Shown here: positions 27,987 through 47,328 of the stretch, in pieces
Layout: every line of letters starts with the position of its first letter
Position numbering within the stretch: position 1 is the stretch's first letter
IMG/VR virus record: IMGVR_UViG_3300029258_003973
Reading direction: 5' to 3' (one strand)
DNA from: an uncultured virus (IMG/VR IMGVR_UViG_3300029258_003973)
Lineage: Duplodnaviria; Heunggongvirae; Uroviricota; Caudoviricetes
Length of the DNA: 61,488 nt
The notes under the pieces: generated by a model
The model's database searches: none
The model's input: the letters and a program-made list of their open reading frames with translations, nothing else
Told to the model about the DNA's origin: nothing
Position numbers and translations under genes: made by a program

Positions 27987-28130
27987 CTACTTTCCTGGGT
28001 CAACCCATATCATTGTTCCACACTTACAGAAGAATGCTCTCACTTTATCAGGAACTTCTTTAACTATATCCTCCTTACAGTGTGGGCACGTATATGATGC
28101 AGTGACCTTAAAAGTCACTTTAGCTGACAT
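27987..28130 (-). CDS. small zinc-ribbon protein (47 aa, not in ORF track)
   Basis: MSAKVTF...CPHC...CKCG. Confidence 0.55.
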   Translation of the reverse strand: MSAKVTFKVTASYTCPHCKEDIVKEVPDKVRAFFCKCGTMIWVDPGK

Positions 28131-28419
28131 CTCTTTGGTTAGTTTGCTCATCTTGCCTATCCCTTACTATTATAACCGGTTTCCTTATGTTACTGACATT
28201 AATTGCCCCCTGCCGGTCTTTAATCTCTGGTATGAGCTCCTCTATAGTCCGCCATAGATTATGTTTGGCGGTATAGAAACCTTCTTTCTTAAACTCTATT
28301 ATGTCTGATACAATGTCAAACAGATAATAGAATCTTTGTATAGAGTTCTCAGGAATAGGATACGATTTCTCTATTACCTTGGGTTCTTCCTTCTTCTCCC
28401 TTAACCATTTAAACATCAT
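28120..28419 (-). CDS. hypothetical protein
   Basis: AGGAGG SD. Confidence 0.6.
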   Translation of the reverse strand: MMFKWLREKKEEPKVIEKSYPIPENSIQRFYYLFDIVSDIIEFKKEGFYTAKHNLWRTIEELIPEIKDRQGAINVSNIRKPVIIVRDRQDEQTNQRDVS

Positions 28420-28534
28420 GATCCTCCTTTACTTTCCCACAGTGTCTGCATTTGTACCTCTTCCCTTTCTCAAGGGTCTTGAAGCCTTTCTTGCCACAGT
28501 GTTCGCAAACAGTCCTATTGTCTTTCTTAGCCAT
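28409..28534 (-). CDS. small zinc-ribbon protein (41 aa, not in ORF track)
   Basis: MAKKDNRTVCEHC...YKCRHC. Confidence 0.55.
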   Translation of the reverse strand: MAKKDNRTVCEHCGKKGFKTLEKGKRYKCRHCGKVKEDHDV

Positions 28535-29132
28535 ATTGGTTATCCTTCGCTTTAGTTTTATACTCCACTATACGTAGAACTCCTCTTGCTTCCAGCTTCC
28601 TCATAATATTAACGTATGTTCTTGACCGCTTCTTCTTCCCCATAGAGGATATATCATAGCCTCTTGACTCAGCTACATTGAAAAACACATCTTCTATAAA
28701 TGATCTCAGGGATTGCTCGGCATGGTGTCTTTCAGTCCAGTATGATCGTCTTCCTACCTGAACCACATCGCCCCTGAACAGTATTACCCAACATGACCTT
28801 GTTTCATTCGTAAGTGTGGAATTCATTACAAACTCCATTACATGAGATAGAGACTCCAGTCGTATCTCTTCTGTAATATTTACATCAGTTAATGCTGGCA
28901 TAATCATCTCCAAAGTGGGGTGGTATTGGCCGTGGCTGACTTTCCTTTCATTTAAAGTCTTGAACCCATTATTAACGGAGTTCAGAGGACTACCACGACC
29001 CAGAACGTGCCCATTGGCGTACTTGTAAGTGTCCTCGAACTTGCCCCTTTTATCCGATTCAGGGGGTGCTGGCGCACCGCTCCGCTTTCCAAATGGACCG
29101 GGTGTAGAGCTACGGATGCTACTTGCTTTCAT
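28527..29132 (-). CDS. hypothetical protein, paralog of 32077-32463
   Basis: WVILFRGDVV...YW...A...L...LEARGVL. Confidence 0.65.
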   Translation of the reverse strand: MKASSIRSSTPGPFGKRSGAPAPPESDKRGKFEDTYKYANGHVLGRGSPLNSVNNGFKTLNERKVSHGQYHPTLEMIMPALTDVNITEEIRLESLSHVMEFVMNSTLTNETRSCWVILFRGDVVQVGRRSYWTERHHAEQSLRSFIEDVFFNVAESRGYDISSMGKKKRSRTYVNIMRKLEARGVLRIVEYKTKAKDNQYG

Positions 29133-29248
29133 ATAACATCATGATCTGCTAGGTGATAACTGCACCCATCAGAATCTGTATGTATCATGTGCTTGCCGGA
29201 AGAAGCTCTCACACATCTGCGGTATCCCATGTGTCCTGTTTATACCAT

Positions 29249-29371
29249 TGCGAGAGCTGGGAGTTGAACCCAACCATGAACCCCGTAATCAGAGAAGCCA
29301 TCAAACTCTGACCAATTTACATGGTACGTGGGGTTATGAGCCCCACGGTACACCGGTACCATTACTCTCGT
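29249..29371 (-). tRNA. tRNA-Met(CAT), initiator-like, with ~55-nt variable-arm insertion
   Basis: acceptor CGAGAG/CTCTCG, anticodon arm GTGGGG-CTCATAA-CCCCAC, T arm TTGGG-TTCAACT-CCCAG. Confidence 0.7.
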
Positions 29372-29374
29372 CCG

Positions 29375-29645
29375 CTCTCTCGAGCTAGTGTGATGTGAGT
29401 TGAATCTATTCGCTGACCTATCAAAAGATAGGCCAGCTCGCCATGTCAGGCAAACTTTACTATGTCGTTAGCGCCCAGGACTTTAGGCTGTCGTTGCCGA
29501 ACATACTCACCGGGAGTTACTGGCATTTACCCGGCCCCTCTGTCCGTTAGTTCCTTACCGTCATACCATCCATCCAAATCGTTAGTGCCATCTAATCATT
29601 GGAGGTGGTATTAGTTGTAAGGAACACATACCTGACTGAGACATT
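29375..29645 (-). ncRNA. candidate structured ncRNA
   Basis: multiple long stems (GTTCCTTAC/GTAAGGAAC, GTCAGG/CCTGAC, GCTGGCCTATC/GATAGGTCAGC); no minus-strand ORF. Confidence 0.55.
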
Positions 29646-29673
29646 CATGATCCCCAGCATTGAAGCTGCACGG

Positions 29674-30273
29674 CTAAACCGCGGAATCATTCTCCATAAT
29701 TATAGGTTTGAATATAGAGCCATGGAGCATGCTATTGCCATTTACTACTGTTACACCCTTTCCCAGGGTTCCAAACAGTCCGTATGCTTTCCAATCGCAT
29801 ACCTTATCTGTTCCAGGCATATTACACCCGGTGTCGCACTCTACAGGGTTATTGCTTACCCCTCCACACATGGGGCACCTGAACCCGTGCTGTCGTATGA
29901 TATCCCACTCTTCCTTAGAATTAACTAGGAGTACATTATCTCCATCTATTCTAGGTATGTCACCGTAGAATGATGTAATTGACCTACCAGATCCTCTTTC
30001 TTCTTCCCACTTTGTCAATACATCACCCGCCGGGATACCAAGTTTATACTCATAGTGCTTGGCCAAGTCTATAGCTCTCTTAAAAGTGTTGCACGGGAGA
30101 CGATAACATACATCTCCTTTCTTATGGCAGCCCATAGGATTAAAGCACTTCTTGTCTCCATTACATATTCTCAGTGTAGCTGACTTTAAGGACTTGTACC
30201 CGCTGGACTTAACAATATCACTTATTGTTGACGGTAATGTCTTAACAGTACTATTATCATTGTTAGTAACCAT
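29674..30273 (-). CDS. Cys-rich conserved phage protein
   Basis: FRCPMCGG...CDWKAYGLFGTLGKG. Confidence 0.7.
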   Translation of the reverse strand: MVTNNDNSTVKTLPSTISDIVKSSGYKSLKSATLRICNGDKKCFNPMGCHKKGDVCYRLPCNTFKRAIDLAKHYEYKLGIPAGDVLTKWEEERGSGRSITSFYGDIPRIDGDNVLLVNSKEEWDIIRQHGFRCPMCGGVSNNPVECDTGCNMPGTDKVCDWKAYGLFGTLGKGVTVVNGNSMLHGSIFKPIIMENDSAV

Positions 30274-30348
30274 ATAGCTGCTCCTATAAGTATTGCGTTA
30301 GCTATTCCTTGTGCGCTTACACTATCATCTGGTCGTTTATGTTGCTCG

Positions 30349-30708
30349 TTATTCATCAATGGATAACCTCTCTAGATCTGATCTATCCTTACAGCTTACC
30401 TCAGAGTACTGCTCGAGAAGATTTACAAACGTCTTATCGTTAAGATATATAATTCGTACAGGTTTCCTCATAGCAAAACACATACCAAGGTCAAAGATAG
30501 TACCAGTTGATCTAGCATCCCACACAACGTGTACCTCATCGGCCCACTCTATCTTTCCCCTGTTATATTCACAAACCTGGATCTCATTGAATCCTTCATG
30601 GTTGTCGAATGCCGGCAATGATACTTCATGTCCTTCATCCTCCATATGTACCTTATGTAAAACCATCATGTCCTGATAGCACGTTGTGCCTATCACAGTT
30701 ATCTTCAT
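30349..30708 (-). CDS. nucleoside 2-deoxyribosyltransferase-like protein
   Basis: IEWADEV...STGTIFDLGMCFAMRKPV. Confidence 0.7.
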   Translation of the reverse strand: MKITVIGTTCYQDMMVLHKVHMEDEGHEVSLPAFDNHEGFNEIQVCEYNRGKIEWADEVHVVWDARSTGTIFDLGMCFAMRKPVRIIYLNDKTFVNLLEQYSEVSCKDRSDLERLSIDE

Positions 30709-30736
30709 ATTATCCTCTTTCTAAGTATCTAACATG

Positions 30737-30833
30737 CGCCAGGTGGGGACTCGAACCCCTGTTCCATTAAGAACCGATCATTAAAGATCTCAACTCTCCT
30801 CCCGGAGCGACTGTGCCCACAGTGTACCTGGCA
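30737..30833 (-). ncRNA. aberrant tRNA-like RNA
   Basis: acceptor GCCAGGT/ACCTGGC, T arm GGGG-TTCGAGT-CCCC, four internal hairpins, no canonical anticodon arm. Confidence 0.55.
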
Positions 30834-30835
30834 TG

Positions 30836-31301
30836 CGGGCCCAAAGATGTACCTTATCATCCGGGCCCTTTACTGTGCATCCAATTTGTGTCCTGTACAG
30901 TTTCCGTTTAATCCATAGTTTAATCTTATCCAGGGCAACCTACCAGCTGGTTCACGCCGCCATCAAAGGTACTGGATGTCAAGGACTTGTCATGCCTCAT
31001 GCTCGCGAGCCGTGCTCCATCCGGAGCCTAACATTCGCAGTACCCATGGGGGCGGCGGAGAGAATCGAACTCTCGTTTCCCCGCTCTAGTATATGGACCT
31101 CGATTACAGAACAGATGCATTACTAAGCTTAGGGTAATAGTCTTAGTCTGAAAGGAGCTCGTCTACCAGTTCCGACATTCCCTCGCATTTTGTGCTGTTT
31201 GTAACTTTGAGGTTACAAATTGAGGGAAGGAGGACTTGAACTCTCCATGCTCTTATGAGCGCTCCTTCTATAAAGCTTAACCTGAAGCTTAGTCTGTACC
31301 C
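30836..31301 (-). ncRNA. large ncRNA with two circularly permuted (YrlA-like topology) tRNA domains
   Basis: T arm and acceptor 3' strand precede acceptor 5' strand and D arm twice (31152-31267 and ~30927-31085). Confidence 0.7.
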
Positions 31302-31311
31302 TATATAACAC

Positions 31312-32064
31312 CTACCCGAAGATATACTTCAGGATAGCGTCCCCTGTTTCTACTTTGGCGACCTCCTCGGAATTTGCCGCTTCCCTGGCCACCTTTACTG
31401 CCTTGTCCAATTTCTCTATCCTCTCGAGAATGGCCTTTCTGTCATCCTTACTGATAGCCCCAGAGAATCGAACGCTAGTCCATGTACCTATTGGGGCGTC
31501 TTCCGTATATACTTCAACCTGTGCTGGGTGCTTATCAGTGGCTTCAGCCTTGATATGATTCCTCGGGACCTTCTTAGTACGGATTGAGCTTTTCTCTTTG
31601 GATTTGTAAAGACCCGACGCCTTATCATGCTCCCATATTTCCATTGGATCCAGAACCGGGAGTTTGTCAACCAAAGTTCTTATATCCTTGAGCTGTTTTT
31701 CCAGGAATATAAGCGTCGTTACTGGTACGTCTTTGGCAATTGTCATGGAATTATCTTCGTCGATATCTATGGTGATATCGGCTCTGGCCATCGTATTTCC
31801 AGAGTCCTGGGTAGCTACCATGTTTATCATAGCCTCCAGGTCTACGCGAACGTCTGCGAGAACTTCTGGCACATTTTCCTGTACAAGTTTGTCCTCATCA
31901 GGAAGTTTGTTTGCCCCAGTAGGATCATCTTCCAGGGGAGAATACCTTCTTGTCATACCCTCGAACAGATCAGTTCTCTGCAGCTTATGGTATGCCTTAG
32001 TTATGGCTGCCTCCCTTTTAGACTTCTCACCACTTACAATTGCTATTACTTGATTCAGTTTCAT
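31312..32064 (-). CDS. conserved coiled-coil protein (DUF7873-like)
   Basis: MKLNQVIAI...LFEGMTRRYSP...VPVTTLIFLEKQL...ATDKHPAQV...KAVKVAREAAN. Confidence 0.75.
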   Translation of the reverse strand: MKLNQVIAIVSGEKSKREAAITKAYHKLQRTDLFEGMTRRYSPLEDDPTGANKLPDEDKLVQENVPEVLADVRVDLEAMINMVATQDSGNTMARADITIDIDEDNSMTIAKDVPVTTLIFLEKQLKDIRTLVDKLPVLDPMEIWEHDKASGLYKSKEKSSIRTKKVPRNHIKAEATDKHPAQVEVYTEDAPIGTWTSVRFSGAISKDDRKAILERIEKLDKAVKVAREAANSEEVAKVETGDAILKYIFG

Positions 32065-32076
32065 ACTACGTTCCTC

Positions 32077-32463
32077 CTATAAATCAACTCTTTTGAATTC
32101 TATGATTCCTTTTGCTTCCATATAAGCCATTGTCTCCTCGTACTCTGCGTGGTCCATTGTTCTATCGGATGTTCCACTCCACATAAGGTCACTTTTTACC
32201 TTGTCTGTCAAGGCAGCTCTAGCATAAGCTCTCGTATTCCATACTCGCTTCCCGTTCCAAAGAGCTACTCTATTACCTTCCACGAATATACCCCAACTTT
32301 CTGCCTCTGCCTCCGCTCCGATCACAATGGTTTCTGCTCGTATAACAGCAAGAGCCCTTTCACTGTTACCCCTGTGACGGAGCTCGTCCATGACATTTAC
32401 ACCGTCTGATGCTACCATTTTCTCTATTAGCTTGTCTCTCTTGGGTACCCTCGCCTTTGCCAT
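32077..32463 (-). CDS. hypothetical protein, paralog of 28527-29132
   Basis: WGIFVEGNRV...VW...A...L...MEAKGII. Confidence 0.65.
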   Translation of the reverse strand: MAKARVPKRDKLIEKMVASDGVNVMDELRHRGNSERALAVIRAETIVIGAEAEAESWGIFVEGNRVALWNGKRVWNTRAYARAALTDKVKSDLMWSGTSDRTMDHAEYEETMAYMEAKGIIEFKRVDL

Positions 32464-32468
32464 GACTT

Positions 32469-33857
32469 TTATCCCTCAGTTACATCAACTGCTAATCCCT
32501 TTCCGTATCCACTCTCCCACTGAGAATATCCACCACCCTGGGTTATAATCCATACCAGTGGTTTGTCCGGATCGGTTTTTGGCCACCCACAGGGGTATCC
32601 GTCAGTTACACATACATAGAGATCATAATCATGTTGCTTGAACACGTCGTGGGAGAAGAATTCACTAAAGTCTGTCCCACCACATCTGTTTCTTTTCACT
32701 TCTTCAAGATCAGATTCGTGCTGTAGTTCTTCTACTTCCTCTGTGGGTTCAGTATCCCAGTGCACTAGATATAGCTTGTCATTGTTCTCCCTTAGCACTA
32801 CTTTCTTGGCTAGGGCAAATGCTTGATTAACCTCATCGTCACTCATGGATCCGGATTCATCCACTACCATCATCGCGCTGAACCCACGAATTCTCTTCTT
32901 ACCGGGGATCATCTTTGTCCGGCGGTTCATCCTGCCATAACAGCGGGTGTATCCCTTGTTTATTGAACGCTCGCCAACAAGAAGCTGTTCCAATAGGGCC
33001 CAACCTTTTAAGAACTCATCATCAAGTTCATCAAGGAATCCCTGAATAGCTCTTTGCATCTCGTAAGGTGCTGATCCAGCTGCCCTATGTGTAGAACGGA
33101 CTATTTCGGCAATGTCCCGCATATACTCCCGCTTGCCTTCCTGGGTCACTTTCGGGATGACTACGACTCCATTTCCATCCCCAATACTACTCGAACCGTT
33201 GCCTTGCTGTATAACTGTTACATTACCTTGATCGTCTACTTCTATTATAGTAGGTATATTATTCCCATTAAATCCAATATTCTTTAGTATCTTCTTCTCT
33301 TCATTGGGATTGGCTCTCATATGCCTCACTATGGACTCGAATGTAGGAAAATCATCATAGTCTATTCCAGCCTTGCTATATGTCAGCATGTTATTAGAGA
33401 GCTTCTTATACCCTTCCATATCCTGCAAAGCATAGTTTACTGGAAGATCAGCCATTGGTGCATATTTAGTGAAGAACTCTTTTGTACCTATACCAAACTC
33501 TGCCATCATATCGAAACCTCTGGTAAAGTGGTAGTTAAGAACATGCATAAGTTCATGGCTTAATGCATAATCTATCTCATAGTTCTCAGCGTTAGCTATG
33601 AATTCTGCACTATATATCAACCTGATACCATTCTCAGTCATTGTCACTGCAGCCAGTCCGCCCTGGATATTTGCCGGGACTTTCTGTATAGATGAAAAGA
33701 ATATAGGGATAAATTCATCACGTACTATACCATCTATAATATACGCTTGGAATCTCTCCCGGGCCTTCTCCCTTATAGCTTTCCGATCTAACTGCTCTCC
33801 GCTGTCGCCGTGTCTTCCTTGTTTTCCACTTGGTTCTCCAGTTCCACTGACAGGCAT
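32469..33857 (-). CDS. DUF2201-type metallopeptidase-VWA protein
   Basis: HELMHVLNYH zincin motif; MIDAS VDESGSM, GGTDF, TDGY. Confidence 0.9.
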   Translation of the reverse strand: MPVSGTGEPSGKQGRHGDSGEQLDRKAIREKARERFQAYIIDGIVRDEFIPIFFSSIQKVPANIQGGLAAVTMTENGIRLIYSAEFIANAENYEIDYALSHELMHVLNYHFTRGFDMMAEFGIGTKEFFTKYAPMADLPVNYALQDMEGYKKLSNNMLTYSKAGIDYDDFPTFESIVRHMRANPNEEKKILKNIGFNGNNIPTIIEVDDQGNVTVIQQGNGSSSIGDGNGVVVIPKVTQEGKREYMRDIAEIVRSTHRAAGSAPYEMQRAIQGFLDELDDEFLKGWALLEQLLVGERSINKGYTRCYGRMNRRTKMIPGKKRIRGFSAMMVVDESGSMSDDEVNQAFALAKKVVLRENNDKLYLVHWDTEPTEEVEELQHESDLEEVKRNRCGGTDFSEFFSHDVFKQHDYDLYVCVTDGYPCGWPKTDPDKPLVWIITQGGGYSQWESGYGKGLAVDVTEG

Positions 33858-35122
33858 TTCAGTACCTCCTCAAACAGGTCTGCATTCTTCTTCTCTTTGA
33901 ACTTCTCATTGAGCTTGTCTTCCATCTTGCTTAACTGCAGCCTTGTTACTTCCTTTAACAGGCCTACGGCCGAGTCAAGGTCTGTTTTCCTCAGTAGCTT
34001 TATGTACTCAATCGTGTTTCCAGCTACTGCTTCCCACACATCTTCCATTTTGCCTTTCATACCGTTGACCATGTCTGCCATGTATGCCCCGGGATCCTGC
34101 ATTCCACGTATCATTTCCTGCTGTATACGATAGAGATGAACTGATTTCTCTTTAGAGTTTATCATCTTCTCTAGCTTCTTGAACGCTTTCTTGTCCCCCG
34201 CCAGTATCTGGATACCCGATATTTCGAATACATCCTTTATATATTTGGCGAAAAGATCGGCATCATCTATTCTCAGGCAAGCATGGGCTACAGCTTTCAG
34301 TTCAAACGGTATGTTATTTGGATCTATTGCTGGGAACATGTTATTCAGCATATCACTGAAATGAGCAAGCCTTCTTCCTTTGTTGTTATTGAATACAAAC
34401 GGGTGGTCTGAAACAAAGTCAACAAGGGAAGCATTTACACCATGTGCTTTTGCCCATGTGATCCATTCACTTGGAACAGCTTCTATCTTGTATATTGCAG
34501 TTCTGTCCTGGCTAGCTTTACCTATTTTGCTCAGCATGTAATCGTTCACTTGTGGTGGATTCATGCTAGCTATAAGCATTGCTCCATCTGATAGGAACTG
34601 ATCATCAAGCCTTCTGTCATAGAATAGCATGTATATCATTTCCTGTACTTCTTTCGATGCCTGGGCAAACTCATCGAGATGTATGATTCCTTTCCAGTTT
34701 GGGTCAAACGCCTTCTGTAAATACTGGAGCTGTACAAAGTTATATGTAGGCTCCTTCTTGTAATATTCATACAGCAAGTTCTTTATCCCCGCCATATCAT
34801 CACTGTATCCGTTCCCTTCCAGTTTCCTTACAAGGGCCGGAAATCCTCTAAGGTCTTCTGGCTGGATACCCTTGCAGGGGAACCATAGGTACTCTATCCC
34901 TAACTCCTCAGCACACTGTTCCTGAAGATGGTTCTTACCTATTCCTGACTCCCCTATGAGCCAGTTAGCCCACTTCCTTGTTGGTTCATGTACATACTGC
35001 ATCTTCAGAATGTTCTTCATCTGATTTACGGATACTGCAGTTGCATGGTACCATACGGCATCAATCCTTGATAGCCTGCTAAACTCGCCGTCTCTCTTAG
35101 CTTTGGTCTCACTTCGTGACAT
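33788..35122 (-). CDS. MoxR/dynein-related AAA+ ATPase
   Basis: GESGIGKN, DLRGFP, IHLDEF, SMNP; adjacent to VWA partner. Confidence 0.85.
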   Translation of the reverse strand: MSRSETKAKRDGEFSRLSRIDAVWYHATAVSVNQMKNILKMQYVHEPTRKWANWLIGESGIGKNHLQEQCAEELGIEYLWFPCKGIQPEDLRGFPALVRKLEGNGYSDDMAGIKNLLYEYYKKEPTYNFVQLQYLQKAFDPNWKGIIHLDEFAQASKEVQEMIYMLFYDRRLDDQFLSDGAMLIASMNPPQVNDYMLSKIGKASQDRTAIYKIEAVPSEWITWAKAHGVNASLVDFVSDHPFVFNNNKGRRLAHFSDMLNNMFPAIDPNNIPFELKAVAHACLRIDDADLFAKYIKDVFEISGIQILAGDKKAFKKLEKMINSKEKSVHLYRIQQEMIRGMQDPGAYMADMVNGMKGKMEDVWEAVAGNTIEYIKLLRKTDLDSAVGLLKEVTRLQLSKMEDKLNEKFKEKKNADLFEEVLKCLSVELENQVENKEDTATAESS

Positions 35123-35705
35123 TAGCCTTCCTCCGTTTCTTTGGTGTTAATTGTTTTATTCTTTCTATTTCTGATTCAGTGACTCCTTTGCCTATAACAC
35201 TAACTTTATTCCTTGCGTTCCAGAGCGAAGCTGCCACTTCCGATACATTTGCTACTGACCCCAAGGAAACAGTTATGTCCTGGTTCTTTAACAAATCTAG
35301 TGGATTCTCTATCAGATTCTTATCTACATATCCCTTTGTGTTTCCAGAACTAAACATGAGAGCCTTGGTCACGACTACCCCTGTACGTATCATATCATGT
35401 GAGTCGCCTACGGAATACATAGGGAGGTGAATGTTGTTCATTCCACATGGTATAAGAATTATGTCATCGTTCTTTGATAACTTTCCAGAATATTCTAGTA
35501 CACACTCAAGGTCCCCTTCTCCTATATTATCTTTGTCGGCCACAAGAGTGTACAGGGGTTTCTCCTCTGGTATTCTTGATACTAGTTCTATAAACGAAGG
35601 ATCACTCTTTTTGGATACCAAGAAAGTTCTCCTATACCCTCCCCTAACATAGGGGGAGCTCGCTGCTCTGCTCCAGCTATACACATAAAGTTTCATGTAC
35701 ACCAT
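35109..35705 (-). CDS. hypothetical protein (198 aa)
   Basis: coupled between RT and AAA ATPase. Confidence 0.7.
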   Translation of the reverse strand: MVYMKLYVYSWSRAASSPYVRGGYRRTFLVSKKSDPSFIELVSRIPEEKPLYTLVADKDNIGEGDLECVLEYSGKLSKNDDIILIPCGMNNIHLPMYSVGDSHDMIRTGVVVTKALMFSSGNTKGYVDKNLIENPLDLLKNQDITVSLGSVANVSEVAASLWNARNKVSVIGKGVTESEIERIKQLTPKKRRKANVTK

Positions 35706-35707
35706 TT

Positions 35708-36964
35708 CTACTTGCCTCCTGCTGTTTTTGCTAATGCTTCCTGTTCCGCTTTTACATTCAACATCAGTTGTATTTCATCTCTTAACATCTTGATTGCATG
35801 CATCCATGTAGAATACTTCTTGTATTTGTCAGGAGAGATTTGGTATATATGAGCCAACTGCCCAAATATCCTATCAGACCTCCGGTGAAGGGTGTTCCTA
35901 TCGTTTCGTAGTTGTTTGGTGGCCTTTGTCCCACATTCTATATCAGAATACAGTTGTTGCATATCATAATACAGATGGTTCAGTGCTGACCTCAGGAACT
36001 TTTCTTTACCCTTTGGTACATTCAACTTTGTATTTGTTACCATGCCCAGTATCCTATGTTGTCTCCATCTGGCACTATACCTCGTTTTATCGTTGTTGAC
36101 CTTGAAGCCCTTATGCCCGGCTACCTCAAAGTCATTTATACAGTCAGTTACCTTCTGTTGGAAATCTCTATCTATATGAGTTGCCGCGGAGAAGAACATG
36201 TTGTCTGAATACCTAGTATATGTTATATTCTTTCTGGAACACATTCTAGAGAACTTATCGTCCAGTGGTAACAAAACACTGTTAGATATATTCGATGCTG
36301 GTATAGTTCCTATAGGTAAAACAGGCACGGACTTGTTTACTCCCCTGGGGTCACTGCGGGTAGTAAGCACTGCTATGGCTCTGCAAAGATGAGATAGCTG
36401 AGAATCATCTGGAGCTGCCAACTTCTTTCCGCGTCTGATCAGCATCATCTTGGCCTTTATTGAAGCCTTTACAGAAGTTATACTAGCAGGATGTTTGCTC
36501 AGTATTTCCTTAAAGTAATTGTAGTATAACTCGTATATCATCTCTCGTGTTATGGAATAGAAGAAGTCAGATATGTCCAACTTATAAAGGGCAAATGCCC
36601 CTACGTGGGGAGCAGCACAATCTGAACACTTCAGTCCTTTCTTATACGAATAGACCTTTCCATGACTTGGAAGAGGAAACATTCCTGTTAACGAGGACTG
36701 TATATGTATGAGCTCAGCACTTGACACCTTGCATAAGTGACGGGCTTTAGTTTTCCCGTTCACTTTCTTCTTTCTCTTCCATGTCTTATATTTAGAATCC
36801 ATATAGTCAAAGGGAGGATATCCTTTCGCGGTCGCTTTCCATACATCAGGAAAGTACTCATTTATATTATTCCACAAGTGAGCCCACTTCTCTAGGAAAA
36901 GCTTAGGATACTTCTTATGCTCAAGCATTACGATACTCGCGTTGTCTTTATGAGTTTGAGCCAT
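35708..36964 (-). CDS. retron-type reverse transcriptase with variant active site (YSDN)
   Basis: YSYKKG...CAAPH (retron region-X NAxxH-like), LDISDFFYSI, LPIG..AS.ISN, YTRYSDNMFFS, GFKVNNDKT, ILGMVTN (VTG-like). Confidence 0.88.
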   Translation of the reverse strand: MAQTHKDNASIVMLEHKKYPKLFLEKWAHLWNNINEYFPDVWKATAKGYPPFDYMDSKYKTWKRKKKVNGKTKARHLCKVSSAELIHIQSSLTGMFPLPSHGKVYSYKKGLKCSDCAAPHVGAFALYKLDISDFFYSITREMIYELYYNYFKEILSKHPASITSVKASIKAKMMLIRRGKKLAAPDDSQLSHLCRAIAVLTTRSDPRGVNKSVPVLPIGTIPASNISNSVLLPLDDKFSRMCSRKNITYTRYSDNMFFSAATHIDRDFQQKVTDCINDFEVAGHKGFKVNNDKTRYSARWRQHRILGMVTNTKLNVPKGKEKFLRSALNHLYYDMQQLYSDIECGTKATKQLRNDRNTLHRRSDRIFGQLAHIYQISPDKYKKYSTWMHAIKMLRDEIQLMLNVKAEQEALAKTAGGK

Positions 36965-38879
36965 TGTTACCCTCCATATATCTCTCTATCATGTCATTCT
37001 TCACTACTGTTTCTGTATAGTTCTTCATTCCTCTGGCACCTATAGATGAGTCATATGACTTAACTATATCTGGAATATATCTCTTTGCAGATGAAGGATC
37101 CTTCTCTATTCCTACTGCATATAGCCTTCCCTCCAACTCGTTGAGTAGCAGAGCAGCTATTTCCTTAAGGTGTTTCTTCCTGAGTTCAGAGAATTTCGAA
37201 ATTACCTGTATTCTGTTCAGTATCTCTTGCTTGAATACTTTCGTGTTCTCTACTTCCTCTCTATTGGATACCCTAGTACCTTTCTGCTTTCTTCCTGACG
37301 AGAAGCCTATGGTCCCTCCCCCTTGCTTGTTCCAGGTTATGTTGGATGTCATTATTATCAACATACCCCTCGCGTCATGACGTCTTCCCTTAGTATCCGC
37401 CAACATACCTGTACCTAGAAGTTCCATTATATGTTCCATGACGGTCTCGTGTGCCTTTTCTATTTCGTCCAGCAACAAGACTCCTCTAGGTGTACTGTCT
37501 ATGAAATCCATTATCTTAGGGGTATCACCATAGCCTATGTATCCTGGGGGCGCCCCTGTTATTCTACTCACACTGTGCTTCTCAGAATAAGTATTCATAT
37601 CTTCTTTGTGAAATGCGCCATCAAACATAACATCAGCTATCACACGGCCAAGCTCCGTCTTACCGACTCCGCTTGGGCCATAGAATAGAAACACACCGGA
37701 TGGTCTTTCTATGTCGGTGAGGCCAGCAGCAATGGACGTTAAGGTAGGAAGGATCTCAGAAAGGACCTCGTCCTGTCCTATTATCCTCCTCTTTATGCTA
37801 TTCTCAATATCAGAAGATATTACGTTTAGTGATGAGCGAATACCTATCTTAGGACCTATAGTTATATGCACGGCTTCCTCAATTTCCTTCTGGGAGAAAT
37901 CTATATCATCAACATTAGTATGCTCAACCCCAAGACGATAATCATTCTGTATCTTAGGGAATAGAAGCATCCTCATTATATCTATCCCATTGGAAAGCTG
38001 CGAGCCTATTCCATATGCGTTCATTAGTGAGAATATTCTTCGCCCAGTTGGCTCAGTTATCGCATAGCCCTTTGTTACCATGCTGCAAAGAATCTCTATC
38101 ATCTCGTCATCCGAATACTCAGGCATGTCAAACACCTTAGCGTCACAAGCAGGTATTAGGTTTGAAAACCTGCTACTGTTCCTGCATATAAATAGCATGC
38201 AGAACTTTCTGTTCCTGAAGAACTTTATGAACTCAAACTCAGAGGCAGTGTTCATTCCCTCAAGGTCTGCATCATCAAGATAAACTAGACCATTAGAGGA
38301 AAGGCTGATAGGGGTAGCGGCAGAAGACATAGTTCTATAATCAAAAACTACTACCCCTGCTTCTTCGAGACTCTCCCTGAGTTTCATAACTAGGGTAGTC
38401 TTACCAGTCATGCCTTCTCCTCTCAGTACCATGAACTGGCGACCACCTGAAAGAATTGTAGATGTAATGATCTTTACCAGTTTGTCATGAAGCTCGTTTA
38501 CCTTTTGCCCAACAAGCTGAAGAGCAACCGGCTGTGGTATCTCCTCAGAATCAGAGTTACCGAGTACATCAGAGTCATCATCAGTATCTTGCCCACTACA
38601 GGCATTGCTGTTGACGCTACTCTCTGCACCCTGAGAGTTGCCACAGGCAGTGAAGAGAAATTGCCATTCATCATTACAACCTCCATTCTCATTTAATAGT
38701 GCGTCTATTTTCTGCTTAAGCTGAACATCATCCATGCTAGACGCCCACTTCTTCAGTCTTATTCCTTTAGAGCCAAGGGAGCGTGCCACAAGATCTATAA
38801 ACATCCTGGGCTGCTCCCTCACTTCTAAAGCCTTCCGGAAGTGAGCAGTATATAAGTACTTCCTCGCCTTCTGGTCCAT
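36948..38879 (-). CDS. ClpA/ClpB-like AAA+ chaperone with degenerate first AAA domain
   Basis: D2: RIIGQD, RPSGVFLFYGPSGVGKT, GAPPGYIGY, LLLDEIEKAH, IMTSN, GARGMK; D1 GEGMTGKT. Confidence 0.9.
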   Translation of the reverse strand: MDQKARKYLYTAHFRKALEVREQPRMFIDLVARSLGSKGIRLKKWASSMDDVQLKQKIDALLNENGGCNDEWQFLFTACGNSQGAESSVNSNACSGQDTDDDSDVLGNSDSEEIPQPVALQLVGQKVNELHDKLVKIITSTILSGGRQFMVLRGEGMTGKTTLVMKLRESLEEAGVVVFDYRTMSSAATPISLSSNGLVYLDDADLEGMNTASEFEFIKFFRNRKFCMLFICRNSSRFSNLIPACDAKVFDMPEYSDDEMIEILCSMVTKGYAITEPTGRRIFSLMNAYGIGSQLSNGIDIMRMLLFPKIQNDYRLGVEHTNVDDIDFSQKEIEEAVHITIGPKIGIRSSLNVISSDIENSIKRRIIGQDEVLSEILPTLTSIAAGLTDIERPSGVFLFYGPSGVGKTELGRVIADVMFDGAFHKEDMNTYSEKHSVSRITGAPPGYIGYGDTPKIMDFIDSTPRGVLLLDEIEKAHETVMEHIMELLGTGMLADTKGRRHDARGMLIIMTSNITWNKQGGGTIGFSSGRKQKGTRVSNREEVENTKVFKQEILNRIQVISKFSELRKKHLKEIAALLLNELEGRLYAVGIEKDPSSAKRYIPDIVKSYDSSIGARGMKNYTETVVKNDMIERYMEGNNGSNS

Positions 38880-38890
38880 CCGGTCCTCCT

Positions 38891-39205
38891 CTAAAGAACT
38901 ATGTCGTCATTGGAACCCGAACCACCATAACTCCCCTGTTGAGACGAGGAATTCTTCTTCTTAGGAAGATACTTAGCTTCCGAAGGAGATATGATAACGA
39001 GCCTGTCGTCATCGGTGCTATTCTCTCTCCTTTTCTTAGGCACAACTACCTTCAAGGTAACTACATTTGTTCCTAGTTCCCTCTTGACAGCGTCAAGATC
39101 GAAAGTCTTGGACCATATGTACTTGTTTCCCGTACTCTTTGATGCGTACACCTTTGCGTCTACAAAGGCTACAGGACCATCATCTCTTTGTTGATTTCCA
39201 GCCAT
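38891..39205 (-). CDS. putative small ssDNA-binding protein
   Basis: beta-rich core, S/G/Q linker, acidic SSB-like tail NDDIVL; AAGGAGGT SD. Confidence 0.5.
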   Translation of the reverse strand: MAGNQQRDDGPVAFVDAKVYASKSTGNKYIWSKTFDLDAVKRELGTNVVTLKVVVPKKRRENSTDDDRLVIISPSEAKYLPKKKNSSSQQGSYGGSGSNDDIVL

Positions 39206-39250
39206 GTGCTGAACCTCCTTTATTATTAACATATAGGATCAAACTCTTGG

Positions 39251-39279
39251 AAAAGGTGGGGACGATGCCCCCATCCTTT
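39251..39279 (-). terminator. intrinsic terminator after RNA polymerase gene
   Basis: AAAGGATGGGG-GCATCGT-CCCCACCTTTT hairpin with U tract. Confidence 0.7.
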
Positions 39280-39315
39280 ATACTCTCAATATCTGCTAAT
39301 ACTCAGAGTGTGTTG

Positions 39316-42300
39316 CTATTTTCCAGAGAGTATTTCCTGCAATCTCTTGACCTTCTCGGTCATTACCTTATCATGGTCTACCCAATAATAGGGAGAATTA
39401 TCTACGTTACCCATCAGATAATCCATCATGGCTTCCCATATTCCAGATCCTAAGCTAGTATTTGAACATACCCTATTTGCTATGTTCGTAACACATATAT
39501 TTCTAGCACTACGCTGCGTTACTGCCAATACGGGATACTTGGCTTCAAGCATTCTTGTTCTCCCGCCATAGTTCTTTTGCTCCCTAGTGAACATTACGAG
39601 CTCATCTATGCACTCTTCATCAGAGAACCCCAGTTCCTTCAGAGCAGCGAGTATATCATCTTCATTTCCAGATGCCACACCATCCACTACTCTCAAAGCC
39701 GGTTGTCTTATTCCTGCCTTAGCGTCTAGAGTATTCTGAGCCAGCACATGATAGAGTTCCATAGCAGAATTCACCAGGTGCTTCTGCTCTGGTTGCCTAG
39801 TGAATATGAACGATAGACCCAGTGCACCGGTTCTGGCAGTACCATCTTTGATTATCTCAAATGCTCTAGCTGCTTTCATGCACTCGTCAAACCTTTCCTC
39901 AGCGCTCATCCCATTGTACAACTTAGCTAACAGATCTGGGTTCTTTACCACATCACTTTCATGAGGACATCCAAATGTAGAGGCCCATCCGACTCTCTTC
40001 CGCAGCTCACGATGAGCATGTTCAGCAGCAACACCATCTATTACTTTGGACGAAACTACAGCACTCTTTACATCTGGCACCAGTTTTGCCAAATCCCTAT
40101 ATGACTCATGATCTGTCGGGAACATCACGAACAACGCATCACCATCGAGGTCACCATCCATTCCACCTATTACTAGTGGAGATACACCTATAGTACTGTT
40201 ATCCCATAACACAAATGGAACAGCAATAACGTTGTTTGTCCTATGAACTGGATCTCTCTTCAACAGACAATACATCTTGCCCCTGCCATTATACACAGCG
40301 CCCATACTCGGGTGCTCTTTCCTTAACCTATTGAATTCTCTTCTAGGTATGGCAATAGTGAGCTCGTCCTCATGTTCCTGTACCATTCTGGATGATGCTA
40401 CCGCTCTTATCGTAGTCGGGAACACTGGCAGCAAGGCGTCGCGAATCATGCCTCCTTTCCCAGTAAGCATTCCTGCCATGATATTCTTATACCTCGCAAT
40501 CTGATAATTCACATCAGCATCATATCCTCTAGACCTTGAATGCTGTTCAGAGAATACACGGTTAGCATAAACAGCTATTCTACTGAACGTAGCACAGCCT
40601 TTTCCAAGGTCCTGTATAGCATTGTGGGGTGGAACAATGACCTTATCCTTTCCCACCTTTATATAACCATACATGGTAGATATCCTTGGGTCACATGCCG
40701 TATCCTGTAGGTCCATTTCGAGCAAAGACTCATAACTAAGGGGATTTCCGATTGATTCCCTGTCCAAACGGGCCTTGATCTCGAAGCAACCAGCACCTTC
40801 AGGTATGTTTCCTGATAGTGCATGCAACATAGGTATAATACTATTGTTCAGATATGTCTTGGCGCCGGATTTCTCTATTATCTGGTTCACCAGTACAGTA
40901 GCGCCTCTGGATATCATAGTCACTATATCAATTCCCAGCCTAGCATTCTTACTGGTTCTCCTGAAATCATCTACCTCAACTGTCGCTCTTCCGCATAACG
41001 CATCCTTTGCATTGTTATCTAGACGGTACATTGTCCTCATACTTATCGGGACGTCCTCATAGGTAGATCCACCGTACTGTACTGTTCCAGTATATTCTAT
41101 GTCGTACTCTTCCATAGTAGCATCCACATCCTTCATGGATAGTTCCTCCAGGGAATCAACCATCACTGACTCTTTGTTCCCTGACACCATAGAGTTGTAA
41201 TACCCTATAAGGGCCAATTTGTCCTCTATCTCAGCACCTAGGGCCAGCCTTTTCATAACGTACGGAGTAGCTATGTAGTGAGCTCTAACCTTGTTTCCGT
41301 TGCTGTCCTCCCATGTTGGCATCTTTTCATCAGGTAATATCGCACTGATAGTAGATTTGTTCCCGTGAGCATCAGCAACTTTGTCACCGACAACTAGAGG
41401 GTAATACACTAGGGAAGTAAACCTATGGGTAAGCCTTTCTTCTGGTATATCGTCAGCTGGAGTAAACAACTCATACTTAATAACTATCCCAAGGGATTTC
41501 ACCTTCGTTCTTATTTCCTTGGTAACTAATTCACCGGTCATATCCTTGTATTGTATGGCAGCTAGAAGATCACCTCTGCGTATGATGTTCATAGCAGTAG
41601 CGCGATTATCATAATCTCTTTCCTTTGGCCACATGGCCTGCAGCATTTCTCTAGCTTCCGTTACACCTATACCTTCGGCAGGCTTCTTTACATTCCACAC
41701 AGTAACAGGCTTATGAACACTTATACGGTCCACGCACGTCTTGAACGCAGCCATCTTCCTGGCGAACGTTTCAGAGACGACTATACCATCTTCATGATTC
41801 AGAGGATGTGTCATTCTCACACCTGGAATACTTACTGAATCTATTTCAGCTCTCACATCAGTTACAGCAAACGGAAGATCAGGTTCTTCTATCCTGAGAG
41901 CCCTGCTTATTCCTCTGGACACTATAGTTCTTCTTGGATCGTCAGCCATTATTCCTACCACCGATCTTCTCCATGTAGCATATGGGAATACAGAATCATA
42001 TCCCTTCACCAGCCGGCAGTCTACAATACTATACCCATCTCTTATCCTGGCTGTTCTTATAGGCTTGGACTGGCTACCACTACAGAAGTCTATAGGACCT
42101 CCTGACTTTATTGGAATATCCTTAATCAGTGGATGAATAACTACCGAGCCTATCTTATCTGCTATTCTGGAGGGGCCTACTTCTATTTCGTCTTCATCCA
42201 GATCGTTCAAATGTTCACTGCCTATAGGATCGCTTTCATCATCCTCATCTCTACAGTATCCTACAAAGGCCCTTAGTAGAGTATGCATAGATCTTATACT

Positions 42301-47300: not shown

Positions 47301-47328
47301 ATTTATCTCTCTTTGTAATGGTTCTCTG

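What the first reader, a model, noticed from the sequence alone, without database searches (positions are those of the whole stretch)
30737..39205. Candidate new system: RT / ClpB / MoxR-VWA / coiled-coil operon ending in permuted tRNA-like RNAs
Seen: downstream of the terminator at 39251-39279, eight genes (SSB-like, ClpB-like, retron-type RT, hypothetical, MoxR-like AAA, VWA-metallopeptidase, hypothetical, DUF7873-like coiled coil) are joined by overlaps or gaps of 12 nt or less and run straight into ~560 nt of tRNA-like non-coding RNA. The RT start overlaps the ClpB stop, leaving no room for the msr-msd RNA that retrons carry upstream. Known: MoxR+VWA pairs are common chaperone modules, and Mauriceville/Varkud plasmid RTs initiate at a 3' tRNA-like CCA end. 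Inference: a phage ribonucleoprotein/chaperone machine in which the RT (active or not) binds or copies the co-transcribed tRNA-like RNA. The linkage could also be coincidental operon packing.
Basis: partly seen in the sequence, partly recalled or inferred. Interest (0 to 1): 0.9.

Follow-up and report, generated by a model that had tools for sequence, protein, structure and literature searches.

The report
Phage RT–chaperone module beside permuted tRNA mimics
A large uncultured phage carries a conserved gene block built around an unusual retron-type reverse transcriptase, and next to it two RNAs shaped like tRNAs whose halves are encoded in swapped order, but nothing yet shows that the enzyme uses these RNAs.

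Summary
Eight minus-strand genes (38891-39205 down to 31312-32064) are joined by overlaps or gaps of 12 nt or less and run into 575 nt of structured non-coding sequence.

The RT is retron-type by sequence and fold, but its catalytic motif reads RYSDN, not YxDD. This is invariant in all 11 close homologues.

ClpB-like, RT, 198-aa protein, MoxR and VWA-metallopeptidase keep this order in the divergent contigs that reach far enough. MoxR and/or VWA also lie just upstream of retron-type RTs in 11 of 50 other phage loci, in a different gene order. A complex prediction supports RT binding to the 198-aa protein (0.75, best control 0.02).

DUF7873 is not conserved with the block, and "SSB-like" found no family support.

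Two RNA elements are true circularly permuted cloverleaves. ARAGORN calls them tRNAs only after in-silico un-permutation, and mismatched-half controls gave 0 of 288 each. Their topology matches YrlA-type Y RNAs, but the Ro-binding motif and a TROVE gene are absent.

The RNA-RT link rests on position only. Six distant RT-MoxR-VWA loci have no tRNA-like element, and odd tRNA-like elements occur elsewhere in the window.

Verdict: a real, apparently undescribed protein module. RNA membership is unproven.

The parts
39251..39279 (-). GC-rich hairpin followed by UUUU, between the RNAP beta-like gene and the block. It is a possible weak terminator or attenuator.
   Evidence: flags 39255-39275 on the + strand only. 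Reading the minus strand gives 6 of 7 pairs plus UUUUCC.
38891..39205 (-). Small protein (104 aa from the RBS-preceded ATG) with a Gly/Ser-rich linker and an acidic C-terminal tip. 'SSB-like' is unconfirmed.
   Evidence: No family hit. A homologue is at the same position in L005, 64% identical over 80 aa.
36948..38879 (-). Hsp100/Clp-type AAA+ ATPase (643 aa). It has a canonical second ATPase domain plus D2-small domain. The N-terminal half is divergent and carries its own P-loop.
   Evidence: AAA_2 2.5e-35 and ClpB_D2-small. NCBIfam ClpA/ClpB models match residues 326-638 only and score far below their cut-offs. It is conserved upstream of the RT in L004, L005 and L006.
35708..36964 (-). Retron-type reverse transcriptase (418 aa) with the non-canonical motif C RYSDN. 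Its start overlaps the ClpB-like stop by 17 nt.
   Evidence: Searches give retron RT family matches. All 15 PDB profile hits are retron RTs, best 8e-24. The AF2 model has pLDDT 84.3, and the top Foldseek hits are retron Eco7/Ec78/Eco8/Ec86 RTs. RYSDN is invariant in 11 of 11 homologues.
35109..35705 (-). 198-aa protein with no recognised fold, predicted to be a binding partner of the RT's C-terminal helices.
   Evidence: It is conserved directly after the RT in L004 and L005. The family has 27 representatives among 1.84 billion proteins, all standalone at 167-233 aa. The AF2 model has pLDDT 79.5. No Foldseek match reached E<=0.001, and the best VIA Z was 2.5. The complex score was 0.75 against a best control of 0.02.
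33788..35122 (-). MoxR-type AAA+ ATPase (444 aa).
   Evidence: AAA_5 and phrog_1297 1e-25. It is 77% identical to the L004 copy and 55% to the L005 copy.
32469..33857 (-). VWA (DUF2201) protein with an N-terminal HExxH metallopeptidase region and a DxSxS MIDAS motif.
   Evidence: DUF2201 1.3e-10 and phrog_1314 5.6e-40. The invariant residues H101, E102, H105 and the DESGSMS motif appear in alignment A3.
32077..32463 (-). 128-aa hypothetical protein, not a fixed member of the block.
   Evidence: No family hit. In L005 the only weak homologue lies 1.8 kb past VWA, beyond the RNA region.
31312..32064 (-). DUF7873 protein (250 aa), not conserved with the block.
   Evidence: PF25283 3.6e-88. It is absent from L005.
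31118..31295 (-). RNA element A, a circularly permuted type-II cloverleaf derived from tRNA-Leu(CAG). The 3' half is at 31221-31266 and the 5' half at 31146-31184. The 7-bp acceptor stem is capped by a linker hairpin, and the 'anticodon' stem continues into a basal helix formed by the flanks.
   Evidence: The fold has z = -4.62, with 0 of 200 shuffles as stable. After un-permutation ARAGORN calls tRNA-Leu(cag), 85 nt. 103 of 288 junction variants are called, against 0 of 288 in the controls.
30868..31117 (-). RNA element B, a circularly permuted type-I cloverleaf. The 3' half is at 31047-31083 and ends in acceptor strand, discriminator C and an encoded CCA. The 5' half is at 30931-30961. An 85-nt linker hairpin caps the acceptor stem, and there is a long imperfect basal helix.
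   Evidence: After un-permutation ARAGORN calls a 75-nt tRNA in 8 of 8 junction variants and in 183 of 288 variants. The fold has z = -2.05, with 6 of 200 shuffles as stable. A weak Rfam tmRNA_permuted hit scores 13.4 bits, E 2.5.
30737..30867 (-). RNA element C, a 5' hairpin followed by a non-permuted tRNA-like multi-helix junction. It has a 7-bp acceptor stem, a T arm and three further hairpins but no anticodon loop. It ends 28 nt before the next gene's ATG.
   Evidence: The fold has z = -2.22, with 6 of 200 shuffles as stable. Rfam tRNA-Sec scores 15.8 bits, E 4.4. The T arm and 5' acceptor were found.

Best explanation
Two different things lie side by side.

(1) A conserved phage protein module.
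- Its core is a retron-derived reverse transcriptase with an altered catalytic motif (RYSDN).
- A 198-aa partner of unknown fold sits on the RT's C-terminal helical domain.
- A MoxR AAA+ ATPase and a VWA-metallopeptidase complete the core.
- In this phage lineage an Hsp100/Clp-type unfoldase and a small acidic-tailed protein are coupled upstream.

Shown: the family assignments, the conserved adjacency, and its recurrence in other phage lineages with a different gene order.

Inferred mechanism.
- The RT-partner complex is the nucleic-acid-handling core, as in retrons, where the RT pairs with an accessory or effector protein.
- The AAA+/VWA-peptidase pair assembles, remodels or proteolytically switches this complex or its target.
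- The second catalytic Asp alternates between Asn and Asp among sister RTs. The function therefore either tolerates Asn in a still active polymerase or depends on binding rather than polymerisation.
- The nucleic-acid substrate is not identified.

(2) A 575-nt array of three tRNA-derived structured RNAs.
- It is probably transcribed with the block, since no terminator was detected on the coding strand.
- Two elements are circularly permuted cloverleaves that keep the tRNA tertiary-contact nucleotides. Their acceptor stems are capped by a linker, and their 'anticodon' stems extend into a long helix.
- This is the topology of YrlA-type tRNA mimics.
- They most likely act as tRNA mimics or as RNase P/Z-processed elements of the phage's own RNA repertoire. 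They are probably not a fixed part of the RT module.
For: Module.
- Gene order ssbL, ClpB-like, RT, 198-aa protein, MoxR, VWA is kept in L005. ClpB-like through VWA is kept in L004. ClpB-like and RT are adjacent in L006.
- The A6 scan used patterns outside motif C and returned 50 phage RT loci. Eleven of them (L010, L011, L012, L017, L018, L019, L024, L026, L032, L033, L053) have MoxR and/or DUF2201-VWA upstream on the same strand.
- In 10 of these 11, VWA ends 0.5-1.7 kb before the RT. In L032 only MoxR was detected, about 5 kb away.
- Five of the 7 RYSD[DN] RTs in that set have the pair, against 6 of 43 others.
- RT-partner complex score 0.75, best control 0.02. This mark was reached by 116 of 157 solved complexes and 2 of 215 mismatched pairs. 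The runs agree in at least 81% of contacts, and the partner's pLDDT is at least 70.
- The predicted interface uses the partner's invariant W162 region and conserved RT residues 380-404.
- RT identity as retron-type.

RNA.
- Searches give the folds. Searches give the un-permutation tests and controls.
- Read from the sequence: U8, A14, G18G19, the T-loop UUCRA and a covarying Levitt pair (A15-U48 in A, G15-C48 in B).
- The YrlA arm order V-T-AS-D comes from passages of PMC4201824.
Against: - Most of the conserved adjacency comes from related phages, so shared ancestry of gene order contributes. L010/L001 and L024/L002/L009 are the same contigs, and L017/L033 are near-identical.
- In L011, L019 and L024 the MoxR and VWA genes are separated by two opposite-strand genes and sit next to the terminase. 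A virion-assembly role independent of the RT is therefore possible. The jumbo-phage review proposes exactly that role for the MoxR-vWA-peptidase pair (passages of PMC7824862).
- Thirty-nine of the 50 phage retron-type RT loci show no MoxR or VWA within 8 kb.
- The small proteins between VWA and RT in the distant loci are not detectably related to the 198-aa protein (hhalign probability 0.1%).
- The tree is a quick, unfinished search, and the relation between the two RT clades is unresolved.
- No msr-msd-like RNA, cDNA or expression data exist.
- The complex score is a model's confidence, not a measurement.
Confidence: 0.5

Rival explanations
1. The RT (active or not) binds, is primed by, or copies the co-transcribed tRNA-like RNAs. 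The eight genes plus the RNA would then form one ribonucleoprotein system. For example, the RNase P-processed, CCA-ended element B could serve as primer or template.
For: - The first sizeable non-coding stretch downstream of the RT block is tRNA-like structured RNA in both genomes that can be examined (window; L005).
- Retron-type RTs need a structured ncRNA, and there is no room for one upstream because the ClpB-like stop overlaps the RT start by 17 nt.
- Elements A and B are closed by flanking inverted repeats, as retron ncRNAs are. This comparison with retrons is recalled, not tested.
- Element B encodes a CCA end.
Against: - Six of 6 distant RT-MoxR-VWA loci have no tRNA gene (ARAGORN) and no convincing tRNA-like element within about 8 kb.
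- The RNA regions of the window and L005 share no sequence and differ in architecture. L005's two recognisable tRNA-like elements are not permuted.
- In the window, two non-conserved genes separate VWA from the RNA.
- Similar odd tRNA-like elements occur elsewhere in the window.
- No complement of 12 nt or more to the RNA 3' ends exists elsewhere in the window.
- RYSDN leaves catalytic competence open.
Confidence: 0.2
2. Coincidental packing. The genes are neighbours only by phage synteny. MoxR plus VWA-peptidase would be a virion-assembly chaperone pair. The RT (with its partner) would be a separate phage-borne retron-like conflict gene. The Clp-like ATPase would be a general chaperone. The RNAs would be decaying or rearranged tRNA genes.
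For: - The MoxR-vWA-metallopeptidase pair is described in jumbo phages without an RT and is proposed to act in virion assembly (PMC7824862).
- In L011, L019 and L024 the genes lie beside the terminase.
- Thirty-nine of 50 phage RT loci lack the pair.
- DUF7873 and the 128-aa gene are not conserved with the block.
Against: - The RT-VWA-MoxR neighbourhood survives a complete change of gene order between clades.
- It also appears with RYADD RTs in further clades.
- Translational coupling by start/stop overlaps runs through the block.
- Elements A and B keep perfect 7-bp acceptor stems, the tertiary-contact nucleotides and extra basal helices, which is not what decay would leave.
Confidence: 0.2
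3. Elements A and B are permuted tRNA genes in the strict sense. The precursor would be circularised or ligated at the anticodon side and opened at the acceptor stem by RNase P and 3' processing. This would yield functional decoding tRNAs, as in Cyanidioschyzon merolae.
For: - The 3' half lies upstream of the 5' half, with a processable 7-bp acceptor stem.
- Element A keeps an intact 7-nt loop with a CAG anticodon and discriminator A.
- Leader and trailer pair next to the anticodon stem.
Against: - Element B has no plausible anticodon loop. The anticodon ARAGORN reports changes with the junction chosen.
- No splicing endonuclease or RNA ligase was seen among the window's ORFs that were scanned.
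- Searching the held papers for 'permuted tRNA' plus 'phage' gave 9 papers. None of the 8 listed titles or abstract openings describes one in a phage (listing only).
Confidence: 0.05

Closest known systems
Retrons (RT + msr-msd ncRNA + effector), e.g. Eco7/Ec78, Ec86, St85
   Same: The RT is closest to retron RTs by profile and by fold. It is paired with a small accessory protein predicted to bind it, and ATPase-containing partner genes are nearby.
   Different: Motif C is RYSDN, not YxDD. There is no space for an upstream msr-msd RNA. The partners (198-aa novel fold, MoxR, VWA-metallopeptidase, Hsp100-like) matched no PADLOC retron-effector model. The block sits in the replication/transcription region of a large phage and is conserved there.
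MoxR AAA+ / vWA-metallopeptidase chaperone pair of jumbo phages (Iyer et al. 2021, PMC7824862)
   Same: The domain pair is the same: an AAA_5 MoxR ATPase plus a VWA domain fused to an N-terminal HExxH peptidase, encoded in large phages.
   Different: The passages read from that paper mention no RT and propose virion assembly. Here the pair is contiguous with an RT, and it is linked to RTs in 11 of 50 other phage RT loci.
YrlA-type bacterial/phage Y RNAs (Chen et al. 2014, PMC4201824)
   Same: Elements A and B have the same arm order: variable region, T arm, capped acceptor stem, D arm. The ends join in a long helix. Both keep tRNA tertiary-contact nucleotides. Both have a 7-bp acceptor stem, like the RNase P-cleaved M. 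smegmatis YrlA.
   Different: There is no GNCGAA motif in the array and no TROVE/Ro60 gene among the window's ORFs that were scanned. No sequence-level match to any Rfam family was found. Element A keeps a full tRNA-Leu-like D loop, variable arm and anticodon-loop sequence.
Circularly permuted tRNA genes (red alga C. merolae) and two-piece permuted tmRNA
   Same: The 3' half is encoded before the 5' half. The acceptor stem is closed by an intervening segment, and element B has an encoded CCA, as in permuted tmRNA.
   Different: These elements are in a phage. Element B has no convincing anticodon loop. Rfam tmRNA_permuted scores 13.4 bits against a gathering score of 47. The phage already has a one-piece tmRNA.

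Membership tests
Retron | RT of the retron clade by sequence and fold | tested here: met
   PADLOC retron RT models reach 4.4e-33. All 15 PDB profile hits are retron RTs. Foldseek ranks 1-17 are retron RTs.
Retron | Catalytic YxDD motif | tested here: not met
   The motif is RYSDN in the window and in 11 of 11 aligned homologues.
Retron | msr-msd ncRNA with flanking inverted repeats next to (usually upstream of) the RT | tested here: inconclusive
   Upstream is excluded by the 17-nt overlap with the ClpB-like gene. The downstream RNAs have flanking helices but are tRNA-shaped, and no retron ncRNA model was available to test.
Retron | Production of msDNA | not testable with these tools
   No RNA or cDNA data were found. 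No RNA run is listed.
YrlA / Y RNA | tRNA-like module with arm order V, T, capped acceptor stem, D, and ends joined in a stem | tested here: met
   Shown for elements A and B by the folds and by un-permutation with controls.
YrlA / Y RNA | GNCGAAN0-1G Ro60-binding motif near the 5' end | tested here: not met
   No GNCGAA match on either strand within 30709-31311.
YrlA / Y RNA | Encoded within about 4 kb of a Ro60/TROVE gene on the same strand | tested here: not met
   No TROVE hit among the 70 window ORFs scanned with Pfam. The rest of the phage genome could not be searched.
Permuted tRNA gene | 3' half upstream of 5' half, together forming a full cloverleaf | tested here: met
Permuted tRNA gene | Processing to a mature decoding tRNA (rejoined anticodon loop) | not testable with these tools
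   No RNA data. Element A has an intact 7-nt loop sequence. Element B has none that is convincing.
Two-piece (permuted) tmRNA | Match to Rfam RF04321 | tested here: not met
   13.4 bits against a gathering score of 47, E 2.5.
MoxR-VWA chaperone pair | MoxR-type AAA+ ATPase next to a VWA protein with a MIDAS motif | tested here: met
   AAA_5 and DUF2201 hits. The DESGSMS and HExxH motifs are invariant.
ClpB / Hsp100 | Two canonical AAA+ domains with an N-domain and middle coiled coil (full-length equivalog) | tested here: not met
   Only residues 326-638 match. TIGR03346 scores 202.5 bits against a cut-off of 1232. The N-terminal half has only weak P-loop hits.
SSB | OB-fold SSB family match | tested here: inconclusive
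   No hit in Pfam, PHROGs, NCBIfam or PDB. The Atlas model has pLDDT 0.38. No structure of my own was made.

The most novel reading that the evidence does not exclude
A virulent large phage encodes a retron-derived RT with an RYSDN active site that forms a complex with a novel-fold partner. MoxR/VWA-peptidase and an Hsp100 unfoldase would switch or assemble this complex. It would act on the adjacent circularly permuted tRNA mimics, which are opened by RNase P into two-piece, CCA-ended and possibly aminoacylatable tRNA-like RNAs, using them as primer or template. That would be a tRNA-primed, retron-like system of a phage, joining Y-RNA-like tRNA mimicry to reverse transcription.
Probability: 0.12. 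Interest if true: 0.9.

Novelty: new variant of a known kind. Interest (0 to 1): 0.66.

Why it matters
Retron-type RTs are known as bacterial defence components that work with an ncRNA and an effector.

Here a distinct RT clade has an invariant Asp-to-Asn change in the catalytic motif. It is fixed in the core region of large uncultured phages. It is predicted to bind a protein of unrecognised fold, and it recurs next to MoxR/VWA-metallopeptidase genes in several phage lineages. If these genes work together, this would add a new partner set, and a phage-side role, to retron-like RTs. It would also give the widespread but unexplained phage MoxR-VWA-peptidase pair a testable context.

Separately, the two permuted cloverleaves are, as far as my searches show, the first such elements noted in a phage without a Ro60 gene nearby. 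They extend the known range of tRNA mimics.

Tried and rejected
- Megablast of the 9-kb block against GenBank phages found no match.
- tblastn of the VWA protein against phages found no match.
- tblastn of the window RT and the L011 RT found only unannotated fragments and one Staphylococcus phage, at 23-34% identity.
- IMG/VR scans with the single RT protein and with the MoxR and VWA alignments found no relatives.
- The genome-contig scan with A1 found nothing. The attempt with A4 was rejected because the alignment was not conserved enough.
- No whole genome is held for this window, and the records behind L003 and L005 are not held. A Ro60/TROVE gene or RNA ligase elsewhere in the phage could therefore not be sought.
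- Sequencing runs: no RNA holder is listed. Five DNA runs from 4 studies hold the stretch and may include the source.
- The 198-aa protein against the 'middle' proteins of distant loci: hhalign probability 0.1%.
- The 198-aa protein against the C-terminal extension of the 612-aa RTs P0012 and P0013: E 0.037 and 0.006 in one-to-one comparisons, probability 6% or less. This is too weak to call a fusion. The exhaustive profile search found no fused form.
- Fold of the 198-aa protein: no Foldseek match at E<=0.001. The best VIA Z was 2.5.
- The permuted reading of the T arm at 29273 gave 0 of 288 variants called, so it was rejected.
- ARAGORN with long introns and a lowered threshold gave scattered calls, some in coding sequence. 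I treated them as unreliable.
- The search for a primer-binding-site-like complement to the 3' ends of A, B and C found matches of 11 nt at most, near chance level. One search was void because it matched the elements' own opposite strand.
- Promoter-like sites in 28000-43500 were at chance level: 35 found against 33.8 expected.

Full report
**What is there.**
The window is part of a large uncultured phage. It carries family B DNA polymerase, UvrD-type helicase, clamp loader, NrdD/NrdG, dUTPase, DNA ligase, UDG and an RNAP beta-like 1180-aa protein. It also has a tRNA-Tyr and a one-piece tmRNA.

Downstream of the RNAP beta-like gene lies a GC-rich hairpin. The scan flags it on the + strand only. 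On the coding strand it has 6 of 7 pairs followed by UUUU. After it, eight minus-strand ORFs are joined by overlaps or gaps of 12 nt or less.

- An Hsp100/Clp-type ATPase: AAA_2 2.5e-35 and ClpB_D2-small, but only residues 326-638 match ClpA/ClpB models.
- A reverse transcriptase.
- A MoxR-type AAA_5 ATPase.
- A DUF2201 VWA protein with invariant HExxH and DESGSMS motifs.
- A DUF7873 protein, 3.6e-88.

The 'SSB-like' label for the first small protein found no support in Pfam, PHROGs, NCBIfam, PADLOC or PDB. The Atlas gave only viral hypothetical proteins. Only its Gly/Ser-rich linker and acidic tip recall SSB.

**The RT.**
RVT_1 scores just below its cut-off (27.3 against 29.6 bits). However, PADLOC retron RT models reach 4.4e-33 and NCBIfam retron_St85_RT 6e-32.
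- A profile of 11 homologues hits 15 PDB sequences, all retron RTs, best 8e-24.
- The AF2 model has pLDDT 84.3. Its best Foldseek matches are the retron Eco7/Ec78, Eco8, Ec86 and Ec83 RTs, E 4e-14 to 1e-10.
- The family is rare. The word-based search of 5.8 billion proteins found 15 proteins at E<=0.001 among 2269 candidates.
- In the 11 that I aligned (36-55% identical to the window RT), motif C reads RYSDN without exception. The motif A aspartate is kept.
- The second Asp/Asn position varies among more distant relatives. RYSDD occurs in L011 and L012, next to RYSDN in L001, L002, L007 and L019.
- Either the polymerase tolerates Asn here or polymerisation is not the selected function. As recalled knowledge, GDN is an active motif C in mononegavirus polymerases. 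I cannot decide between these.

**Is the gene linkage more than packing?**
The metagenome scan returned three divergent relatives of the window RT.
- By tblastn, L005 (RT 44% identical) keeps RNAP beta-like, small protein, ClpB-like, RT, 198-aa protein, MoxR and VWA in the same order.
- L004 (54%) keeps ClpB-like through VWA.
- L006 (37%, 2.1 kb) keeps ClpB-like and RT.
- DUF7873 is absent from L005. The 128-aa gene has only a weak homologue there, 1.8 kb further on.

This much could be inherited synteny. The stronger evidence comes from unrelated gene orders. A scan of IMG/VR with an alignment of three distant RTs, using peptide patterns outside motif C, gave 50 phage loci.
- In these, phmmer and then profiles built in a script found MoxR and/or DUF2201-VWA genes upstream of the RT on the same strand in 11 loci: L010, L011, L012, L017, L018, L019, L024, L026, L032, L033 and L053.
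- In 10 of the 11, VWA ends 0.5-1.7 kb before the RT. Pfam confirmed DUF2201_N plus DUF2201 and AAA_5 in the five loci checked.
- Caveats: L010 and L024 are the contigs of L001 and L002, L017 and L033 are near-identical, and L032 shows only MoxR.
- Five of the 7 RYSD[DN] RTs in this set have the pair, against 6 of the other 43.
- In a quick, unfinished tree (SH-aLRT only), the window clade (15 rows, support 99, all RYSDN) and the L001/L002/L007/L011/L012/L019 group (inside a 13-row clade, support 96) are separate. Their mutual relation is unresolved.
- The RYADD RTs with the pair fall in two further clades. I left out L003, L009, L010, L024 and L033 as duplicates, and P0004 and P0014.
- The RT-MoxR-VWA neighbourhood therefore recurs across RT lineages.

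Against a joint function:
- In L011, L019 and L024 two opposite-strand genes separate MoxR from VWA, and the group abuts the terminase.
- The jumbo-phage review proposes virion assembly for the MoxR-vWA-peptidase pair and mentions no RT in the passages I read (PMC7824862).
- Thirty-nine of the 50 loci lack the pair.

**The 198-aa protein.**
It follows the RT by 2 nt and is conserved there in L004 and L005.
- An exhaustive profile search found 27 representatives among 1.84 billion proteins, all standalone at 167-233 aa.
- Its AF2 model has pLDDT 79.5, built from 22 sequences. It has no Foldseek match at E<=0.001, and its best VIA Z is 2.5.
- The complex prediction of RT plus this protein scored 0.75 against a best control of 0.02. 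That mark was reached by 116 of 157 solved complexes and 2 of 215 mismatched pairs. The runs agree in at least 81% of contacts, and the partner's pLDDT is at least 70.
- The contacts join RT residues 332-404, the C-terminal helices with the conserved K380 and Y384, to the partner's invariant W162 helix.
- This supports binding but does not show it.
- The small proteins in the equivalent position of the distant loci are cysteine-rich and not detectably related.

**The RNA.**
ARAGORN and Rfam gathering thresholds find nothing in 30709-31311. Permissive Rfam gives only weak tRNA-Sec and tmRNA_permuted hits. The region nevertheless folds better than all 100 shuffles (z = -3.27).

Element A (31118-31295; z = -4.62, 0 of 200 shuffles) reads in this order:
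1. 3' strand of an 'anticodon' stem.
2. Long variable arm.
3. T arm.
4. 3' acceptor strand and discriminator A.
5. A linker hairpin.
6. The perfectly complementary 5' acceptor strand.
7. U8.
8. A D arm with the tRNA-Leu-type loop.
9. 5' strand of the anticodon stem, followed by a 7-nt loop sequence with CAG.

Element B (30868-31117; z = -2.05) has the same order with a short variable loop. It has an encoded discriminator C plus CCA and an 85-nt linker. In both, the flanks extend the anticodon stem into a long helix. Both keep U8, A14, G18G19 and the T-loop, and their Levitt pair covaries: A15-U48 in A and G15-C48 in B (read from the sequence).

Test by in-silico un-permutation:
- ARAGORN calls A as tRNA-Leu(CAG), 85 nt. 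It calls B as a 75-nt tRNA in 8 of 8 junction variants. The native order gives 0 genes.
- Over 288 junction variants each, A is called 103 times and B 183 times. Four mismatched-half controls and the candidate at 29273 gave 0 of 288 each.
- The same detector found no further case in 56 sequences totalling 849,506 bases.

Element C (30737-30867; z = -2.22) is a non-permuted tRNA-like junction without an anticodon loop.

**What the RNAs resemble.**
The arm order (variable region, T arm, capped acceptor stem, D arm, ends joined in a stem) is that of YrlA-type Y RNAs. M. smegmatis YrlA has a 7-bp acceptor stem that is cut by RNase P and receives CCA (passages of PMC4201824). Two defining features are not met.
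- There is no GNCGAA motif in the array.
- There is no TROVE/Ro60 gene among the 70 window ORFs scanned. The rest of the genome was unreachable.

They also fit the formal definition of permuted tRNA genes, but B lacks a credible anticodon loop.

**Do the RNAs belong to the RT block?**
For:
- The first large non-coding stretch after the block is tRNA-like in both examinable genomes. L005 8811-9440 has z = -4.61 and two cloverleaf-like elements.
- No minus-strand terminator was detected within the block.

Against:
- The two RNA regions share no sequence and differ in design.
- Two non-conserved genes intervene in the window.
- The six distant RT-MoxR-VWA loci have no tRNA (ARAGORN) and no convincing tRNA-like element.
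- The window has other odd tRNA-like elements: 29133-29673 with z = -4.53, and 45510-45764.
- No PBS-like complement was found.
- No RNA run is listed, so expression is untested.

**Literature.**
Full-text searches gave the following.
- 'reverse transcriptase, MoxR, phage, VWA' gave 9 papers. I read passages of two of them.
- 'retron, von Willebrand, AAA, phage-encoded' gave a listing only.
- 'DUF2201, reverse transcriptase' gave 0 papers.
- 'permuted tRNA, phage' gave a listing only.

None describes this RT-partner set or permuted tRNA-like RNAs in a phage. The MoxR-vWA/DGR-RT conflict systems of multicellular bacteria (PMC7159879) use a different RT clade and a different context. Supplements were not consulted.

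**Verdict.**
The protein part is a real, conserved and apparently undescribed retron-like module of phages, with function inferred only. The RNA part is a genuine pair of permuted tRNA mimics plus one tRNA-like element. The claimed functional union of the two is possible but currently rests on position alone.

Noticed in passing
window 47326-47756 (-): A tRNA-Tyr(GTA) is followed 2 nt later by a full-length one-piece tmRNA (Rfam 150.6 bits), both encoded by the phage.
   Followed up: partly
window 29133-29673 (-): A second long non-coding stretch (541 nt) is strongly structured (z = -4.53, 0 of 100 shuffles). It has a T-arm-like motif at 29273. A permuted-cloverleaf reading was rejected (0 of 288 variants called).
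   Followed up: partly
window 45510-45764 (-): A 255-nt element whose ends form a 7-bp acceptor-like stem next to a T arm (tmRNA-like or intron-containing tRNA-like). Its overall fold is no better than shuffles (z = -0.34). It starts 5 nt after a 66-aa, very basic ORF (45769-45969) that I read from the sequence.
   Followed up: partly
L005 11119-11310 (+): A tRNA-Pro is followed directly by a tRNA-like element of about 110 nt. Nineteen nucleotides around its T arm are 95% identical to the 3' end of the window's tmRNA.
   Followed up: no
L053 5062-7056 (+): The VWA-metallopeptidase protein of this distant locus carries a LAGLIDADG_3 domain (2.5e-8) at residues 242-292. This suggests an intein or homing-endonuclease insertion.
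   Followed up: no
window 52371-61486 (+): A plus-strand cluster of sugar-modification genes: NAD epimerase, dTDP-sugar 3,5-epimerase, two radical SAM enzymes (one SPASM, one B12-binding), FkbM-type and CmcI-type methyltransferases, and glycosyltransferases.
   Followed up: no
L011, L019, L024 (about 400-2900, -): In the distant RT-MoxR-VWA loci the terminase large subunit gene lies divergently next to MoxR. This places that version of the module in the packaging/morphogenesis region.
   Followed up: partly
proteins P0012, P0013: The sister clade of the window RT consists of 610-612-aa RTs (also RYSDN) with a C-terminal extension of about 200 aa and no known family. Its similarity to the 198-aa partner is weak (hhalign E 0.006).
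   Followed up: partly
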